A stretch of DNA of 64,000 bases, taken from a virus. Its lineage: Duplodnaviria; Heunggongvirae; Uroviricota; Caudoviricetes. The stretch is taken from IMG/VR virus record IMGVR_UViG_2609459792_000007; one strand, given 5' to 3'. Of this stretch, positions 15,706-62,123 are shown in pieces. A model generated the notes under the pieces. That model searched no databases, was not told the DNA's origin, and was given only the letters and a program-made list of their open reading frames with translations. The position numbers were made by a program, and so were the translations under genes. Position 1 is the stretch's first letter, and each line of letters starts with the position of its first letter.

Positions 15706-15816
15706 TATTGCATCTCTTAGCTACTGACTAATGCGTTCTATTTTACACATAAGTTTTTAATCAATTTAACAGGCTCAAAGTGTAGAGCTTCTGGGCGTCT
15801 AAGACGACAAGTTATG

Positions 15817-15871
15817 CCTGCTTCTGTATATATAAATAATAAGTAACTTATTAAATATATACGGAAGCAGG
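15817..15871. repeat. long AT-looped hairpin element, copy A
   Basis: CCTGCTTCTGTATATAT..ATATATACGGAAGCAGG, 17-bp arms with one G-T pair; near-identical copy at 62065-62123; followed by T-rich tract. Confidence 0.7.
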
Positions 15872-15978
15872 TCTTTTAAAAGACACCACCAGAACAACTC
15901 CCTTCCGTTTCCACTTCCAAAAACTGCCACCAGTCGCTATCATCCGCTCATTGTGATAAGTAAGTAACTACCTACCAG

Positions 15979-22267: not shown

Positions 22268-22466
22268 GCGGGAGAAGGAAACGCTTCATGAAATCAGTAA
22301 GTGGCCGGAGTTCCCTGAGTACTGGAAGCCTAAAACGCGGGCTAAGTTAGAGCGGTTAGGGTTGGTTGCAAACGTTTCTGAAACGTGGTGTTCGGCCAAC
22401 TACCAGTTAACTGATAAAGGGAAAGTATTGCTACAGCAATTAGTAGAATCAGGAGCGTTAAAATGA
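22251..22466 (+). CDS. hypothetical protein
   Basis: 71-aa ORF; no motif recognised. Confidence 0.4.
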   Translation: MIVLSKREKETLHEISKWPEFPEYWKPKTRAKLERLGLVANVSETWCSANYQLTDKGKVLLQQLVESGALK

Positions 22467-22615
22467 TTCCATACATCTCATTAGCTTTTATGGGTGGCTT
22501 CCTTATTGGCTTCGGCATCTGTCGTGATTTAATTAAGCAGGAACTTAAAACCAAAACACTGTGCATCGGAAAGCGTGTGTATCGGGTAGTTCATGAAACA
22601 AAGGTTAGAAAATGA
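22463..22615 (+). CDS. small membrane protein (50 aa, below ORF-track cutoff)
   Basis: Read from sequence: MIPYISLAFMGGFLIGFGICRD..GKRVYRVVHETK; TM helix plus basic tail. Confidence 0.4.
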   Translation: MIPYISLAFMGGFLIGFGICRDLIKQELKTKTLCIGKRVYRVVHETKVRK

Positions 22616-22902: not shown

Positions 22903-23681
22903 AAATACAATGATAAGTATTTACTTACTTATCTTATATGTATAAGATGACTTTGTTTTCGTTGAGACGCGACTGTTTGAACTTAAATACAAGTGCAAAC
23001 GAAGAAGTCTATCTGGCAGTAGCCTAATAAGCCAAACACCAGCGAGGTCAGTTTCCAGCCTCGTTACCGAAATGGGACACACTGAGCGAGTGTGATTGCA
23101 GAACGCAGGAGGGAACATTCATGTTCCCTCCGATGAAGTAACAGAATGGGCGGTTGGTATATTTTCAACTCCATATGACTCCCGGATTCTTAGCCACTGA
23201 CCGCCCATTCTGTTACGTCATTTTGTTCAATTATGTCGTTTATACTGGGTTAAAAAGCGGCGACGTAGCCCGGCTGGTATGGTCAGCCAGCACACAACGT
23301 TGAGGCCATTACATTTTTATCAATTCTAAGGTTCTATTCACAGAGATACCGGCGAGCGTTGATATGTAACATGTTGGGCAAACATTCAATCGGAGTAGTG
23401 GCCTCAACGTTGTGAAAATAGGATAGTTGTGTAGGTTTAACCACTGTTGCCATTGGTACCTGTTTTCACAACAAATGATTCCATACATCACATTGTATAA
23501 ATTACAAAGTAGGTGCTGTCCTCAGAAACATCATCTACTTAAATAATTTGCCTTCTACTATTGAGCGAAGTCGAAAGCGTCTGGCACTAACGAAAAGTGC
23601 AAGTAGCGGTGCGTTTCCTGGCAGAAACTAACACCGCCGCGATTGGCACTGTTGAGTAATAAATACTGGCAGTGCTGAATT

Positions 23682-25083: not shown

Positions 25084-25133
25084 ACCACCAAACTCACTCC
25101 CATTTCCCTTAAAATTCAAAAAACAACGTCAAA

Positions 25134-25164
25134 ATGATTCCATACCTACTATGTATGGAATCAT
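25134..25164. promoter_or_regulatory. perfect 12-bp inverted repeat upstream of the recombinase gene
   Basis: ATGATTCCATAC-CTACTAT-GTATGGAATCAT; half-site ATGATTCCATAC also at 22463 and 23478; 17-mer ATGTATGGAATCATTAG recurs at 31181-31197. Confidence 0.5.
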
Positions 25165-25263
25165 TAGTGAAAATGAGTTACTTTTACTCTTGATCCTATA
25201 AGAATCTATGCCTAATATACTGTTTACTTATACAGTGAATCGGCGTAACTCGGTGATTGTCAT

Positions 25264-26367
25264 ATGAAAAATAGCTTTGACAGAGCACGCGCTGCGGAGA
25301 ACACCTCAAAAGAGGCGATTGAGTATCTCGAAAGAGCATCTCAAATGCAGGCCGTTATGATCTCGCAGGTTAGCATTGATATGAGATTCTCGGACGCATT
25401 CATGTTATTCACTCGCTTATCTCTGCTGATAACCAGACGTCGGCCAGAGATCGCTGTTCATTGTATTTTGATACATGTTTTGCCGCACATTGCCGATGTA
25501 AAAGTAAGTGACATTAATAGGTTCATGGTGAACCAGCTGGTCAACCCACTAATACTGGATGGCAAAATTGTTATGGGCCGCCGCGTTTTCTCTCTGATGA
25601 AACAGTTCCTTAGCTGGTGCGCCTTCCAGGGGATGATAGACGTGTCACCGTTAAACGATATGTCACTAAACAAAGTTGCCGGTGGCGCAAAGCCCACACC
25701 TCGCGAGCGGAAGCTGACCGACGCAGAGGTATGGGTGTTCTGGAATATATGGGACTACTTCAATGTGTGCGCTGGTACAAAATGGGCGGCCAGGCTGTGT
25801 CTTGTATCAGCAAGACGACCTGACGAAGTACTGCGGGCTAAAAAAAGTGAGTTCAATCTTAAGCGTGGGGTTTGGAATCAAGGCAAGAGAAACAAGTCAG
25901 CACGTGAGCATTCGCTGCCTTTAAGCACATTAATGCGCACATGCATTGAAGAGTTGTTCGAATACGGTAAAGACAGCCAGTGGCTCGTGCCTTCGAATAA
26001 AAAAATCGGGAAAGACCTTCCTATGTCTAAAGTGGCAATAGCCCAGGCATTACGTCGTATTCTGGAACGACCAGAACTGATGGAGCTTGAGCCATTTACA
26101 CCCCGAGATTTGCGCCGTACTGCGCGTAGTTACTTCCCAGCATTAGGCATAAGCCAGGAGGTATCACGCAAAATCATGAACCACAGTCTTGAGGGGATAG
26201 ATCGGGTCTACGACCGGCACGATTATATGGACGAGATGCGAGACGCCTTAGAAAGTTTCTCGACGTACATCGCATCAATCGTAGAGCAACCGGATTTAGA
26301 CGAAATTGACCACAAATTCAAGGGAGATCGTCTATCAACAGAGCTTATTCGTGTAAATTTTTCATAG
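25264..26367 (+). CDS. tyrosine recombinase / integrase (P4-family catalytic domain, atypical N-terminus)
   Basis: 367 aa; C-terminal catalytic residues in RDLRRTARSYF and NHSLEGIDRVYDRHDY; N-terminal about 60 aa do not resemble the usual arm-binding domain. Confidence 0.75.
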   Translation: MKNSFDRARAAENTSKEAIEYLERASQMQAVMISQVSIDMRFSDAFMLFTRLSLLITRRRPEIAVHCILIHVLPHIADVKVSDINRFMVNQLVNPLILDGKIVMGRRVFSLMKQFLSWCAFQGMIDVSPLNDMSLNKVAGGAKPTPRERKLTDAEVWVFWNIWDYFNVCAGTKWAARLCLVSARRPDEVLRAKKSEFNLKRGVWNQGKRNKSAREHSLPLSTLMRTCIEELFEYGKDSQWLVPSNKKIGKDLPMSKVAIAQALRRILERPELMELEPFTPRDLRRTARSYFPALGISQEVSRKIMNHSLEGIDRVYDRHDYMDEMRDALESFSTYIASIVEQPDLDEIDHKFKGDRLSTELIRVNFS

Positions 26368-26748
26368 AGACTTTATGGCCTCAACAACCTTTTGTGATGC
26401 GCCTTTCTCTTTACCGAATCGCTCGTTATACGCAGCAAGAACCTGTTTTTCGTCCTCGTTAAGAGGAGCGGTGCCTTCTTTGTATAAAAATGCTGCGAGT
26501 TCAGGTTGGCGTTCTTCCAGCACCATCATCATAAGACGACTTGGTTCAATACCCAGCGCCAGCGCCAGCGGACGAACCTTATCGATAGGCAAAGGAATTT
26601 TGCCACTTTTAATTAAAGAAAGGTTGTTGGCATTTTTATAACCAATAAGTCTGGCTATTTGGGCCTGACTCATAGGTGAGGATTCAATCAGCCCTGCGAT
26701 AAAAGCAGCATAGCGACTTTCTATAAATTCAATCTTGTTGTCAGACAT
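26362..26748 (-). CDS. HTH (XRE/CI-like) transcriptional repressor
   Basis: 128 aa; helix-turn-helix QAQIARLIGYKNANNLSLIKSG; no S24 peptidase domain; divergent from the downstream + genes across an AT-rich intergenic region. Confidence 0.65.
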   Translation of the reverse strand: MSDNKIEFIESRYAAFIAGLIESSPMSQAQIARLIGYKNANNLSLIKSGKIPLPIDKVRPLALALGIEPSRLMMMVLEERQPELAAFLYKEGTAPLNEDEKQVLAAYNERFGKEKGASQKVVEAIKSL

Positions 26749-30929: not shown

Positions 30930-33900
30930 ATGAAGGCACTGATGGTTCGAACTGACTTCTCACTTGGGGAGTCGGCTCTAAAAGCAGAAAACGCGGTGAA
31001 GATTGCCAGAGAAGCTGGCTACACCGCTGTAATTTCAGCAGATAGCATGAATATTGCGAGCGTTATTCCACTACAACGTGCCGCTGGTGACGACATGGCG
31101 GTTATTTGTGGTGTGAAACTAAACATTGTTGATGATCCCACATACGAGCACCGGGCTAAACTTGCTAAAGAATCTATGAGATGTATGGAATCATTAGAGC
31201 GGGGACGTAACTACTCGTTTACCGCTCTAATTAAAAATGAGCAAGGATATCGCGACATCTGCGAACTAATGACGGCGGCCAACACACGAGAACAGTTCTA
31301 CTTTGTACCGCGTCTCTCGCTCGAACAGTTGGTTTCTACATATGCCAAAGGCAACATCATCCTGCTTACTTCCGACATCGGTAGCGTGTTCCAACGCAAC
31401 GATTTTGCAAAAATCATAAGCACACTGATTACAGCGGGTGGAAAAGACAACTTCTATAGTGTGGTTTATCCGCACCCTACCCCATTCTACGACCAGATTA
31501 ACGTCCGGGCGATGAAAGTCGCCAGCGCATTGAAAATAGAGCCAGTGGCGTTCTATCCCGCTTATTACGAATCGATCGACGATGCAGACATTAAAGACAT
31601 TGCGCACATGGTTACGAACAACATAAAAATCGACCAGCCGCATCGTCTGCGTATCCCCCACCAGCGAGATAACGCCGTCAATGGTCGCCGCCATCTCCTT
31701 GAGGCGCTTAAAGCCTTCTCCGTTCGCATGGATGTGCCGGTAACAGCTGCAATGGCCTCAACAACGCAGGACTCCATTATCGAAGCCTGTACATGGCGCT
31801 GGCATGAATTGCCACCAGCACTGCCCAAGATGGCAGACGACGAGCCTGCAACGCTGATGAAACTGGCTGTTGCAGGGCTGCGCAAACGTCTTACCACAAA
31901 AGAGTTTGGCTACACACCACCGGCTTCTGAGAACAGGGTTTATGTTGAGCGACTTAAGTACGAAATGGACACGCTTACTCGCCTGGGATTTTGTGGTTAC
32001 TTCCTGATGGTACGCGATCTGATGAATCACAGCCGTGAAACTGGCATTCCTGTCGGGCCTGGTCGTGGTTCCTCTGCCGGTTCTCTGGTGGCGTGGTGCA
32101 TAGGCATAACCAACGTCGACCCAATCCGTCACGGTCTTCTGTTTGAGCGTTTCATCAACCCTGAGCGTCTCGACTTGCCGGATGCGGACTTGGACTTCAG
32201 CCAGGCACGTCGCCATGAGGTGATCGAGTATCTGAATGAACGCTACGGCGAAGATTACGTTGCAGGCATTCCGAACTTCACCTACCTGGGCGCAGCCTCT
32301 GCACTACGTGATACCGCTCGTATTTATGGTGTGGAGTCCGCAGATATGGCGGTATCAAAAGAACTGAAGAACGCTGAGGATGATAGCCTTCCATTGGAAG
32401 AACTGCGCGAACAACTGGCAAGTCTCGACAAATACGCAACAAAATATCCTGATGCATTCAATGCAGCCTGCAAGTTACAAAGCCTTATGCGTGGCTTTGG
32501 TAGACATGCGGCAGGGATGATCGTAGCAGGTGTTCCTCTGACAGAACGTACACCGGTTGAGCGCCGTGGTGACGCGCGTTGTATCGCATTTGACAAGCGT
32601 TACTGCGAGGCTATGGGCCTAATTAAGCTGGACGTGCTTGGCCTGGCAACTCTCGATTTGCTCGATAGTGCAAAACGCTACATAAAAGAGAACACAGGTG
32701 AAGATATCAATCTTGATGCCATTTCTCTTGAAGATCGCAAGGTGCTGGATGGTTTTGCTGCTGGGTACACTCAAGGTGTTTTCCAGCTTGAATCAGGCCC
32801 AATGCGCAAGCTGCTTAAAGATTTAGGTGGTGGAATTGAGCCAATGAGCTTTAAAACGGTCGTCGCTACAACTGCGCTCTTCCGGCCGGGGCCAATTCAA
32901 TCAGGCATGTTGGATGACTATGTTTCTGTCGCCAAAGGCTTTATGACGCCGGAATCATTACACCCCGTTCTTGATGAACTTACCGCGGAAACAAATGGCG
33001 TGATTCTCTATCAGGAACAGACGATGAACGCGACTCGATTGCTTGCCGGCTTCACAATGGCTGAAGCTGACGCTGTGCGTTCCGCAATCGGTAAGAAGAA
33101 CATGGAAAAAATGAAGAGCATGGGCGAGAAGTTCATCGTTCAGGCTCAAGCTGGCTGGATAGACGTTGAGCTGGAAGATGGCACTACACAGCGCATTCAC
33201 CGTGCGGAACATTTTAAATGCGAAGACGGAACTCTGAAAACTGTCGAAGAGGCACTTGAGCACGGCGCAAAACTACCTATAAACGCAGTACGCGTTACAG
33301 CGTCACATCCAGGGCTATCAGAGATGAAAGCGAAGGAGATCTGGACCGCATTCGAAAAGAATGGTGCCTACCAGTTCAACAAATCACACTCTGTTGCTTA
33401 CTCCTTAATCAGCTATCAATCTATGTGGTTGAAAACTCATTATCCCGCAGAGTTTTTCGCTGCTGCTCTCACTATTCTTGGCGAAGATAAACACCAGGGG
33501 CTGGTTAAAGATGCGCTGACCTATGGTATTCGCGTATTGCCACCAGACGTTAACGTGTCATCTAACCGAATTGAGATCCGCACGCTTGAAGATGGCAGCC
33601 AGGTGCTGTATGCGCCCTTCTCTGCTGTGAAGGGGTGTTCTGAGAATGGCTGCCAGGCCATCATGAGAGCGCGAGAAAAGGTTGGTGGCAAATTCGAGTC
33701 ACTTGCGCAATTCGAAGAAGCTGTCGAGAAACGTGCCTGTAATAGTCGAGTGCGCGAATCGCTGCAAAAAGTAGGGGCGTTTGCATCCATCGAGCCAGGT
33801 AGTCTGCCAGCAACTGATCCAGAGCGCCTCCGCGACCAGGCAGAATTGATGGGAAACCTTGTCATAGACGCAGTTAAAGCCTCACGTCCGTTTGAGATGA

Positions 33901-62064: not shown

Positions 62065-62123
62065 AGCCTGCTTCTGTATATATAAATAACTACATATTAA
62101 TTATTAATATACGGAAGCAGGCT
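62065..62123. repeat. long AT-looped hairpin element, copy B
   Basis: AGCCTGCTTCTGTATATAT..ATATACGGAAGCAGGCT; shares flanking TTCTGGCGTCT with copy A at 15817-15871; followed by GTTTTGT. Confidence 0.7.

What the first reader, a model, noticed from the sequence alone, without database searches (positions are those of the whole stretch)
25134..25167. Exact 17-mer shared between the recombinase upstream palindrome and the dnaE coding region
ATGTATGGAATCATTAG occurs at 25151-25167 (inside the palindrome ATGATTCCATAC-N7-GTATGGAATCAT) and again at 31181-31197 within dnaE; the half-site ATGATTCCATAC also begins two small ORFs at 22463 and 23478. A 17-bp exact repeat is unlikely by chance in 64 kb. 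It may be a binding site for the recombinase or repressor, or a trace of recombination between these loci.
Basis: seen in the sequence. Interest (0 to 1): 0.45.

Follow-up and report, generated by a model that had tools for sequence, protein, structure and literature searches.

The report
Recombinase target palindrome with scattered half-sites
The repeated 17-mer is one arm of the 13-7-13 bp palindrome that a phage-plasmid's tyrosine recombinase most likely cuts and rejoins. Single extra copies of that arm are kept letter-for-letter inside dnaE and at two other places in related elements, which hints at a second, still unexplained job for the recombinase.

Summary
ATGATTCCATAC occurs five times exactly in the window and nowhere else, even with one mismatch. 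The window is an SSU5/pHCM2-type phage-plasmid.

The palindrome at 25133-25165 (13-bp arms, 7-bp spacer) is very probably the crossover site of the adjacent tyrosine recombinase. In 63 of 63 homologous recombinase loci from many Enterobacterales, a 12-7-12 palindrome lies 45-290 bp upstream of the gene. The arms fall into two classes that track the recombinase clade (TGATTCCATAC or TGACTCCAGAC). The spacer varies between lineages. The module often travels without the neighbouring repressor gene or any phage gene.

The dnaE copy (D), the copy at the start of a 50-aa ORF (A) and an intergenic copy upstream of tRNA-Asn (B) are isolated arms with a conserved ATC extension. They sit at syntenic positions from E. 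coli to Klebsiella, Salmonella and Yersinia elements. In dnaE the motif is the longest invariant run among 67 distinct sequences, although that protein loop varies in distant relatives. So the constraint is on the DNA.

These copies are not traces of recombination. I read them as accessory recombinase-binding sites; their role was not resolved. The recombinase promoter carries a conserved LexA box.

The parts
25133..25165 (.). Site C/C': palindrome AATGATTCCATAC-CTACTAT-GTATGGAATCATT (13-bp arms, asymmetric AT-rich 7-bp spacer). Inferred crossover (lox-like) site of the adjacent recombinase.
   Evidence: The arms are invariant and the spacer is lineage-specific. A homologous palindrome lies upstream of 63 of 63 recombinase homologues.
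25264..26367 (+). Tyrosine recombinase ('integrase'), 367 aa, with core-binding and catalytic domains and no arm-binding N-domain.
   Evidence: PF00589. The fold is nearest Tn1549 Int(82-397) and lambda Int(75-356). R185, K211, R284, H307 and Y316 are conserved, and the first His of HxxR is Arg281.
25190..25235 (+). Putative recombinase promoter (-35 TTGATC 25190-25195, -10 TAATAT 25213-25218), followed directly by the LexA-type box CTGTTTACTTATACAG (25220-25235).
   Evidence: Sequence. This is the only CTGT-N8-ACAG in the window. It is conserved in the E. coli, Salmonella, Klebsiella and Kluyvera phage-plasmid lineages and absent from class-2 loci. The consensus promoter scan did not list this promoter.
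22463..22477 (+). Site A: isolated arm plus ATC (ATGATTCCATACATC). It coincides with codons 1-5 (MIPYI) of a 50-aa hydrophobic ORF and overlaps the stop of the 71-aa ORF upstream.
   Evidence: It is syntenic in SSU5, pJN2-26 and L095. It is the longest invariant run in an 800-bp alignment of 13 distinct sequences.
23475..23489 (+). Site B: isolated arm plus ATC, intergenic, 207 bp upstream of tRNA-Asn.
   Evidence: It is the only block conserved in all 10 lineages aligned.
31180..31194 (-). Site D: isolated arm plus ATC on the minus strand, inside dnaE (codons for C-M-E-S).
   Evidence: It is present in 80 of 80 IMG/VR relatives. It is the longest invariant run in dnaE nt 1-900 among 67 distinct sequences. 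The peptide is not conserved in distant DnaE.
25870..25881 (-). Site I remnant: TTGATTCCAAAC inside the recombinase gene (V-W-N-Q). It is an intact TTGATTCCATACATC in the Salmonella, Klebsiella, Yersinia and Kluyvera lineages and has decayed in this window's lineage.
26362..26748 (-). HTH 'repressor' gene, convergent with the recombinase gene and overlapping it by 6 bp. It is a neighbour and not the binder of the motif.
   Evidence: It is absent from most loci that keep recombinase plus palindrome.

Best explanation
The window is an SSU5/pHCM2-type phage-plasmid. The palindrome at 25133-25165 is the target site of the tyrosine recombinase encoded 100 bp downstream. One monomer binds each 13-bp arm, and strand exchange occurs in the asymmetric 7-bp spacer. 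This most likely resolves plasmid multimers, and possibly interconverts monomers and multimers when the SOS response induces the gene (inferred).

The 17-mer in dnaE is not a recombination scar. It is one of three isolated copies of the arm (four in relatives), each extended by ATC to the consensus (A/T)TGATTCCATACATC. They have been kept by selection on the DNA itself. I infer that each binds a single recombinase monomer and acts as an accessory (regulatory or architectural) site and not as a crossover site. The extra ATC could compensate for the lack of a cooperative partner arm.

Copies to the left of the palindrome (A, B) are on the plus strand and copies to the right (I, D) are on the minus strand, so all of them point toward the palindrome.

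Shown here: the anatomy, the conservation, the covariation with the recombinase clade, and the independence from the repressor gene. Inferred: binding, catalysis, and the role of the isolated copies.
For: (1) 63 of 63 loci with a recombinase homologue (45-86% identity; Kluyvera, Yersinia pestis, Chimaeribacter, Pantoea, Rahnella, Erwinia, Xenorhabdus, Morganella and others) have a 12-7-12 inverted repeat with at most 2 mismatches, 45-290 bp upstream of the gene.
(2) The arms track the recombinase clade. Recombinases at least 56% identical to the window's have TGATTCCATAC. Those 45-53% identical have TGACTCCAGAC, changed symmetrically in both arms, and intermediates exist in L118 and L145.
(3) The arms are invariant while the spacer differs by lineage: CTACTAT, CTATTAA, TTGGTAG, TTGTAAG, CTATAAA, TCCTTAG, TTATATA.
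(4) In more than 50 loci the recombinase-plus-palindrome module occurs without the HTH gene or any phage-plasmid gene.
(5) The protein has the two-domain tyrosine-recombinase fold and keeps the nucleophile Tyr and the Arg/Lys/His residues.
(6) In E. coli the palindrome is found only on plasmids: 252 genomes, 0 chromosomal places. None of 210 PLSDB relatives lacks the recombinase-HTH module. Forms without it appear only as the phage isolate SSU5 and one viral metagenome contig.
(7) The isolated copies are syntenic and conserved in SSU5, pJN2-26, Kluyvera, Y. pestis pMT1-type and L090.
(8) D is a 14-nt invariant island where only 12.7% of third codon positions are invariant. The encoded CMES is replaced by unrelated residues in distant DnaE. 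B is the only conserved block of its intergenic region.
(9) In lineage L092 the arms, B and I all keep TGATTCCATAC, while A has drifted at synonymous sites although its peptide is kept. The copies therefore follow the arm sequence and not each other.
(10) Precedent: Tn5401 carries single extra TnpI-binding motifs near each transposon end in addition to its res site, and TnpI binding regulates expression (PMC7157771).
Against: No binding or recombination was measured. The first His of the HxxR motif is Arg in this family, so activity is assumed and not shown.

The isolated copies conserve A11 and C13 (ATC), whereas the palindrome has variable spacer bases at those positions. A different or additional reader of the isolated copies therefore cannot be excluded.

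Phage-plasmids with class-2 arms (Xenorhabdus, Morganella) have no isolated copies, so the copies are dispensable for the basic system. SSU5 and L047 keep A, B and D without the recombinase, but their deletion is recent.

The orientation pattern rests on only four independent sites (p about 0.125). I found no positional logic tying the copies to promoters.
Confidence: 0.6

Rival explanations
1. RNA-level element. The plus-strand RNA of A and B (AUGAUUCCAUACAUC) is complementary to the plus-strand RNA of D and I (GAUGUAUGGAAUCA). The dnaE or recombinase mRNA, or the palindrome hairpin, would pair with the translation start of the 50-aa hydrophobic ORF, in the manner of a type I toxin-antitoxin.
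For: A covers the start codon of a small hydrophobic peptide. A and D give a perfect 19-nt duplex in the window. The palindrome folds as a 13-bp hairpin. Three of the four kinds of single variant seen (SSU5 B, L028 A, L026/L058 D) would keep G-U pairs.
Against: B is not an ORF start in other lineages. In L092, A has drifted while B and I still match the arms. There is no compensatory covariation, and the sequence is fixed and equals the recombinase arm. There is no Rfam match. The wobble count is not significant.
Confidence: 0.12
2. Dispersed operators of the neighbouring HTH repressor, comparable to the asymmetric C1 operators scattered over phage P1.
For: The HTH gene lies next to the recombinase gene in all phage-plasmid lineages. 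The motif is asymmetric and scattered.
Against: The palindrome persists with the recombinase alone in more than 50 loci that lack the HTH gene. Arms of 12-13 bp with 19-bp centre spacing fit recombinase sites better than an HTH dimer. The HTH protein is only 57-66% identical in lineages whose arms are identical.
Confidence: 0.06
3. The isolated copies are functional one-armed crossover sites, like the sfx sites of the Rci shufflon (12-bp conserved arm plus 7-bp spacer). They would allow programmed inversion or excision between A/B and I/D.
For: The 12+7 geometry is the same. In the window, A and D share exactly arm plus 7 bp (ATCTCAT) in inverted orientation.
Against: The A and D 'spacers' differ in most other lineages: SSU5 has ATCCTAT against ATCCTCC, and L024 has ATCTCAT against ATCCCTT. 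An A x D inversion would truncate dnaE after codon 84. All 80 relatives have an intact DnaE N-terminus in the standard arrangement. No second-arm remnant is present.
Confidence: 0.05
4. A polar array tied to replication. The sites would face a lytic origin or a terminus at the palindrome, like Ter sites around dif, with the bound protein acting as an orientation-dependent barrier or loading signal.
For: All left copies are on the plus strand and all right copies on the minus strand. The array sits in the middle of the replication-gene cluster (helicase, primase, ligase, dnaE).
Against: There are only four independent sites. GC skew shows no switch near 25 kb. No Tus-like protein was identified. 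I know of no precedent for a tyrosine recombinase acting as a fork barrier.
Confidence: 0.08
5. Chance repeats, or a scar of past recombination between the recombinase locus and dnaE.
For: A 12-17-mer shared by two loci could in principle be copied by illegitimate recombination.
Against: Shuffles predict 0.03 copies. The copies lie in three different reading frames and strands with no flanking homology. They are conserved at syntenic positions over 77-100% identity. dnaE mosaic breakpoints lie near 32285, 32755, 33350 and 34080, not at 31183.
Confidence: 0.02

Closest known systems
Cre/loxP of phage-plasmid P1, and other 'simple' tyrosine recombinase-site pairs (Dre/rox, Vika/vox; PMC10250229)
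   Same: A recombinase gene lies next to a palindromic site with about 13-bp arms and an asymmetric spacer. It sits on a plasmid prophage. No arm-type sites or arm-binding domain are present. The presumed role is multimer resolution.
   Different: There is no sequence relationship to Cre (no PDB hit by sequence). The fold is nearer lambda Int and Tn1549 Int, and by sequence it is an offshoot of P4-type integrases. The spacer is 7 bp, not 8. There is a LexA box at the promoter, and there are extra isolated arms elsewhere in the genome.
TnpI and its res (irs) site of Tn5401/Tn4430
   Same: A tyrosine recombinase whose binding motif forms an inverted-repeat core next to its gene. The motif also occurs as single copies far away, in opposite orientations on the two sides (the Tn5401 ends), with regulatory roles (PMC7157771).
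   Different: There is no transposase or transposon ends here. No direct-repeat accessory motifs adjoin the core. The remote copies lie 0.7-6 kb away, inside coding sequences.
Rci/sfx shufflon of IncI plasmids (geometry recalled from memory)
   Same: One conserved 12-bp arm plus a 7-bp spacer.
   Different: Spacers are not conserved between partners, no inversion isoforms were seen, and an inversion would destroy dnaE.
XerCD/dif with polar KOPS and Ter sites around it (from memory)
   Same: A resolution site is flanked by oriented sequence elements that point toward it.
   Different: Here the oriented element is the recombinase arm itself. There are only 3-4 copies, and no translocase or Tus analogue was found.
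Integron integrase IntI (LexA-controlled promoter; from memory)
   Same: A tyrosine recombinase gene with a LexA box at its promoter, next to a hot spot of variable cargo genes.
   Different: There are no attC-type folded sites or cassette array. The site is a simple palindrome.

Membership tests
Tyrosine recombinase superfamily (PF00589) | Catalytic domain with the R-K-H-R-H/W-Y residues | tested here: met
   PF00589 E=5e-10. R185, K211, R284, H307 and Y316 align with P4-type integrases. The first His is Arg281, invariant in the family and also seen in P0119.
Simple recombinase plus lox-like site (functional class of Cre/loxP) | Inverted 11-15-bp arms around an asymmetric 6-8-bp spacer, next to the recombinase gene | tested here: met
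   The site is 13-7-13 at 25133-25165, 100 bp upstream of the gene. The same arrangement is found in 63 of 63 homologous loci.
Simple recombinase plus lox-like site (functional class of Cre/loxP) | Site specificity co-evolves with the recombinase | tested here: met
   There are two arm classes, separated by recombinase identity (at least 56% against 45-53%), with symmetric changes in both arms.
Simple recombinase plus lox-like site (functional class of Cre/loxP) | The recombinase alone recombines two sites | not testable with these tools
   This needs an in vivo or in vitro recombination assay.
Cre family proper (sequence family) | Detectable sequence homology to Cre, and an 8-bp spacer | tested here: not met
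   No PDB chain matches at E<=1 by sequence. Cre ranks about 40th by fold, at E=0.017. The spacer is 7 bp.
P4-type phage integrases | N-terminal arm-binding domain (PF13356) and integration into a chromosomal (tRNA) attB | tested here: not met
   No PF13356 is present, although distant homologues P0114-P0120 have it. There are 0 chromosomal places among 5426 E. coli genomes.
TnpI-type resolution site (Tn4430/Tn5401) | Core inverted repeat plus adjacent direct-repeat accessory motifs, within a Tn3-family transposon | tested here: not met
   There are no further arm copies within 700 bp of the palindrome, and no transposase. Only the 'remote single motif' trait is shared.
Rci/sfx shufflon | Inverted one-armed sites with identical spacers, and inversion isoforms | tested here: not met
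   Spacers differ between A and D in most lineages. All 80 relatives are collinear.
Repressor operator set (P1 C1-like) | The motif co-occurs with the repressor gene | tested here: not met
   The palindrome persists without the HTH gene in more than 50 loci.
LexA regulon member | A CTGT-N8-ACAG box overlapping the promoter, conserved in relatives | tested here: met
   The box is at 25220-25235, 2 nt after the -10. A strict box is present in 8 distinct upstream regions of phage-plasmid lineages, and a relaxed box in 2 more. LexA binding itself was not tested.

The most novel reading that the evidence does not exclude
The isolated arms form a recombinase-read array written into coding sequences: dnaE, the recombinase gene itself and a small ORF start. 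The copies converge on the resolution site from both sides. On SOS induction of the recombinase, the array would couple site-specific recombination to replication or gene expression. For example, it could act as a split pseudo-site that sequesters the palindrome in monomers, as orientation-dependent roadblocks, or as nicking sites that start lytic replication. No such use of isolated core-type half-sites kilobases away from a tyrosine recombinase site is described in the literature I could search.
Probability: 0.2. Interest if true: 0.75.

Novelty: new variant of a known kind. Interest (0 to 1): 0.55.

Why it matters
SSU5/pHCM2/pMT1-type phage-plasmids are common in clinical Enterobacterales: 252 of 5426 complete E. 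coli genomes carry this palindrome. They also carry resistance and virulence cargo.

This work gives a precise, testable target site (13-7-13, natural spacer variants, two arm classes) for a widespread and uncharacterised recombinase family. The family also sits on Pantoea, Rahnella and Erwinia megaplasmids. That is useful for understanding plasmid stability, and possibly as a new orthogonal recombination tool.

The conserved isolated arms are a clear case of selection on DNA overriding synonymous drift inside an essential polymerase gene. They mark an unexplained layer of control that may be linked to SOS induction.

Tried and rejected
- Literature search for the arm sequences found only unrelated primers.
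- PDB sequence search with the recombinase found nothing.
- An Rfam scan of 22-32 kb found only tRNAs.
- GC skew gave no origin or terminus signal.
- The consensus promoter scan gave nothing at the sites. Looking by eye for a common -10 downstream of the isolated copies was inconsistent across lineages.
- Mosaic-breakpoint mapping in 32 close relatives placed no breakpoint at A, B or D. This rejects the idea that the sites are anchors for modular exchange.
- The SSU5/L047 loss of recombinase plus HTH is a 2.2-kb deletion that is not bounded by the motif.
- In class-2 lineages the I-site position matches the arms at only 7-10 of 11 bases, and 5 of those are forced by the conserved W and Q codons. 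I judged this not significant.
- An exact 15-mer scan of IMG/VR mixed SSU5-like contigs with chance hits and was uninformative.
- An early dnaE conservation count selected sequences by the motif. It was redone with BLAST-defined regions.

Full report
**The observation**

The sequence is as described. ATGTATGGAATCATTAG is at 25151-25167 and 31181-31197. ATGATTCCATAC-CTACTAT-GTATGGAATCAT is at 25134-25164. The 12-mer is exact at 22463(+), 23475(+), 25134(+), 25153(-) and 31183(-). No copy has one mismatch, and the next best copies have two mismatches, at about the chance level. Shuffles predict 0.03 copies of the 17-mer at up to 2 mismatches and 0.29 of the 12-mer at up to 1.

I name the copies as follows:
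- A: 22463, at the start codon of a 50-aa ORF.
- B: 23475, intergenic, 207 bp before tRNA-Asn.
- C/C': the palindrome.
- D: 31180-31194, on the minus strand, inside dnaE.

A and D share 19 nt.

**What the element is**

The window is 96-98% identical to Escherichia phage Cyrano and to CMS-2020a-type plasmids, and about 77% identical to Salmonella phage SSU5. It is therefore an SSU5/pHCM2-type phage-plasmid.

The gene order is helicase, primase, ligase, small ORFs (A), B, tRNAs, cargo, palindrome, integrase, a convergent HTH 'repressor', CobT-like, AAA ATPase, then dnaE (D). A complete 112-kb relative, pYLPD4a, contains the 12-mer only at these five places.

**The palindrome is the recombinase's site**

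The 367-aa protein is a tyrosine recombinase (PF00589). Its predicted fold (pLDDT 81) is nearest the core-binding plus catalytic domains of Tn1549 Int and lambda Int. It has no arm-binding domain. R185, K211, R284, H307 and Y316 are conserved. The first His of HxxR is Arg281.

Homologues run down to about 45% identity and then merge into P4-type integrases. I fetched 65 loci from one genome per species. In all 63 loci with a true homologue, the best 12-7-12 inverted repeat within 500 bp upstream has at most 2 mismatches and lies 45-290 bp from the gene.

Two arm classes exist:
- (A/G)TGATTCCATAC, with recombinases at least 56% identical to the window's.
- (G/A/C)TGACTCCAGAC, with recombinases 45-53% identical.

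The two differences between the classes are mirrored in both arms, and intermediate states exist (L118, L145).

Within the window's class the arms never vary, including an AA just outside them that makes the arms 13 bp. The 7-bp spacer does vary between lineages: CTACTAT, CTATTAA, TTGGTAG, TTGTAAG, CTATAAA, TCCTTAG, TTATATA.

Most class-2 loci, and the Chimaeribacter class-1 loci, carry the recombinase and palindrome with no HTH gene and no phage-plasmid gene. Many of them are on Pantoea, Rahnella or Erwinia megaplasmids. The only constant partner of the palindrome is therefore the recombinase.

In E. coli the palindrome is on plasmids only: 252 genomes, with no chromosomal place. None of 210 PLSDB relatives lacks the recombinase-HTH module. 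Forms without it are the phage isolate SSU5 and one viral contig, and they arose by a recent 2.2-kb deletion.

Together this supports a plasmid-borne, self-contained recombinase-and-site pair. Multimer resolution is its most likely task, as Cre/loxP does for P1 (PMC7969092; target sites next to recombinase genes, PMC10250229). Neither arm sequence appears in the searchable literature.

**The isolated copies**

SSU5 keeps ATGATTCCATACATC at syntenic A and D while the flanks are heavily substituted, and keeps B with one change. All 80 IMG/VR relatives found through DnaE have D: 78 exact and 2 with one change. Those whose flank reaches far enough also have A and B.

Klebsiella phage pJN2-26 has six copies. 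The sixth, I, is TTGATTCCATACAT on the minus strand inside the recombinase gene, encoding D-V-W-N-Q. Site I is intact in the Salmonella, Klebsiella, Kluyvera, Y. pestis and L092 lineages. It has decayed to TTGATTCCAAAC at 25870 in the window.

I chose regions by BLAST, not by the motif, and measured conservation:
- D is the longest invariant run (14 nt, 31182-31195) in the first 900 nt of dnaE among 67 distinct sequences that are 77-100% identical.
- A is the longest run in its 800-bp region.
- Only 12.7% of third codon positions are invariant in that stretch of dnaE.
- The encoded C-M-E-S is replaced by unrelated residues in distant DnaE proteins (L092 GEEVPVY, L094 EELLPIV).
- B is the only block conserved in all ten lineages aligned.

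The three coding copies use different frames and strands. The constraint is therefore on the nucleic acid and not on the proteins.

A logo of 70 distinct contexts gives (A/T)TGATTCCATAC followed by A (100%), T (91%), C (92%). The palindrome arms are followed by variable spacer bases, except for a T at the second position.

**Which reader?**

In L092 the arms, B and I all read TGATTCCATAC. A has drifted at synonymous sites although its peptide (M)IPYIL is kept. The copies therefore track the arm and not one another. That favours the recombinase over RNA-RNA pairing between sense copies (A, B) and antisense copies (I, D).

Phage-plasmids with class-2 arms (Xenorhabdus, Morganella) have no isolated copies of their own arm. 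The isolated copies are therefore an add-on in the clade that also has a LexA box at the recombinase promoter.

Each lineage that has isolated copies keeps at least B on the left, and I and/or D on the right. Left copies are on the plus strand and right copies on the minus strand. With four independent sites this pattern is only suggestive (p about 0.125).

**What the isolated copies are not**

They are not recombination scars. They have no flanking homology, they sit at conserved syntenic positions, and the mosaic breakpoints in dnaE lie near 32285, 32755, 33350 and 34080 and not at D.

They are not shufflon-type crossover sites. The 7 bp after the arm differ between A and D in most lineages, no rearranged isoform occurs among the relatives, and an inversion would cut dnaE after codon 84.

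**Most likely mechanism**

I conclude that the palindrome is the crossover site, with confidence about 0.85. The isolated copies are probably single-monomer recombinase-binding sites kept for an accessory role, with confidence about 0.55. Whether that role is regulatory, architectural or replication-linked is open.

The ATC extension may raise affinity where no partner arm gives cooperativity (inference). The nearest precedent is Tn5401. Its TnpI motif forms the res core and also occurs once near each transposon end, and TnpI binding modulates expression (PMC7157771).

**Context worth noting**

The recombinase promoter consists of TTGATC, a 17-nt spacer and TAATAT. It is followed at once by CTGTTTACTTATACAG, the only CTGT-N8-ACAG in the window. 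The box is conserved across phage-plasmid lineages.

The recombinase gene runs into the convergent HTH gene and overlaps it by 6 bp. SOS-induced transcription of the recombinase gene would therefore be antisense to the putative repressor gene.

Immediately left of the palindrome, close relatives with near-identical right flanks carry unrelated sequence. These left flanks share only a loose AGAWTTnAAAAAA element about 10-25 bp from the arm. That side is a cargo hot spot.

**Verdict**

This is a real, non-random feature. Its core is an undescribed member of a well-known kind, a simple tyrosine recombinase with a lox-like site. The conserved isolated arms inside coding sequences are an unusual variant whose function still needs experiments.

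Noticed in passing
window 25190-25237: A LexA-type box (CTGTTTACTTATACAG, 25220-25235) lies directly after the -10 of the recombinase promoter. It is the only such box in 64 kb. It is conserved in the E. coli, Salmonella, Klebsiella and Kluyvera phage-plasmid lineages and absent from Pantoea/Rahnella-type loci.
   Followed up: partly
window 25264-26748: The recombinase gene (+) and the HTH 'repressor' gene (-) converge and overlap by 6 bp. SOS-driven recombinase transcription would be antisense to the repressor gene, which could form an induction switch.
   Followed up: no
window 15816-15872 and 62066-62123: There are two copies of a roughly 57-bp hairpin-type inverted repeat (arms CCTGCTTCYGTATATAT). 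That gives four arm matches against 0.26 expected. The function is unknown; it could be an operator, a partition site or a terminator.
   Followed up: partly
window 43074, 47301, 54339 (also 16760, 34562): The translation-start string AAAGGAAAAACACATGA (or AAAGGAAAGCACATGA) recurs at several gene starts. The same string appears in distant relatives L090 and L092.
   Followed up: no
window 22903-23681: This is a 780-bp non-coding stretch before tRNA-Asn. It has two long-range inverted repeats (23138/23200 and 23293/23399) and a weak tRNA/tmRNA-like Rfam hit at 22976-23078. These may be decayed tRNA genes or a structured RNA.
   Followed up: no
window 25100-25132 and the homologous left flanks in L001, L010, L014, L020, L022, L029: The sequence left of the palindrome is unrelated among otherwise near-identical relatives, so this is a cargo hot spot. 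The exception is a loose AGAWTTnAAAAAA element about 10-25 bp from the arm, which could be an accessory or bending site.
   Followed up: partly
L003 (SSU5) and L047, compared with 210 PLSDB plasmids: Relatives lacking the recombinase-HTH module appear only as a phage isolate and a viral metagenome contig, never among plasmid records. This is consistent with the module being needed for the plasmid (lysogenic) state.
   Followed up: partly
L094 14481-16802; L086 10498-12837: LAGLIDADG homing-endonuclease domains are inserted in, or lie next to, replication-cluster genes in some relatives: the AAA ATPase in a Xenorhabdus element, and a free-standing gene in pYLPD4a.
   Followed up: no
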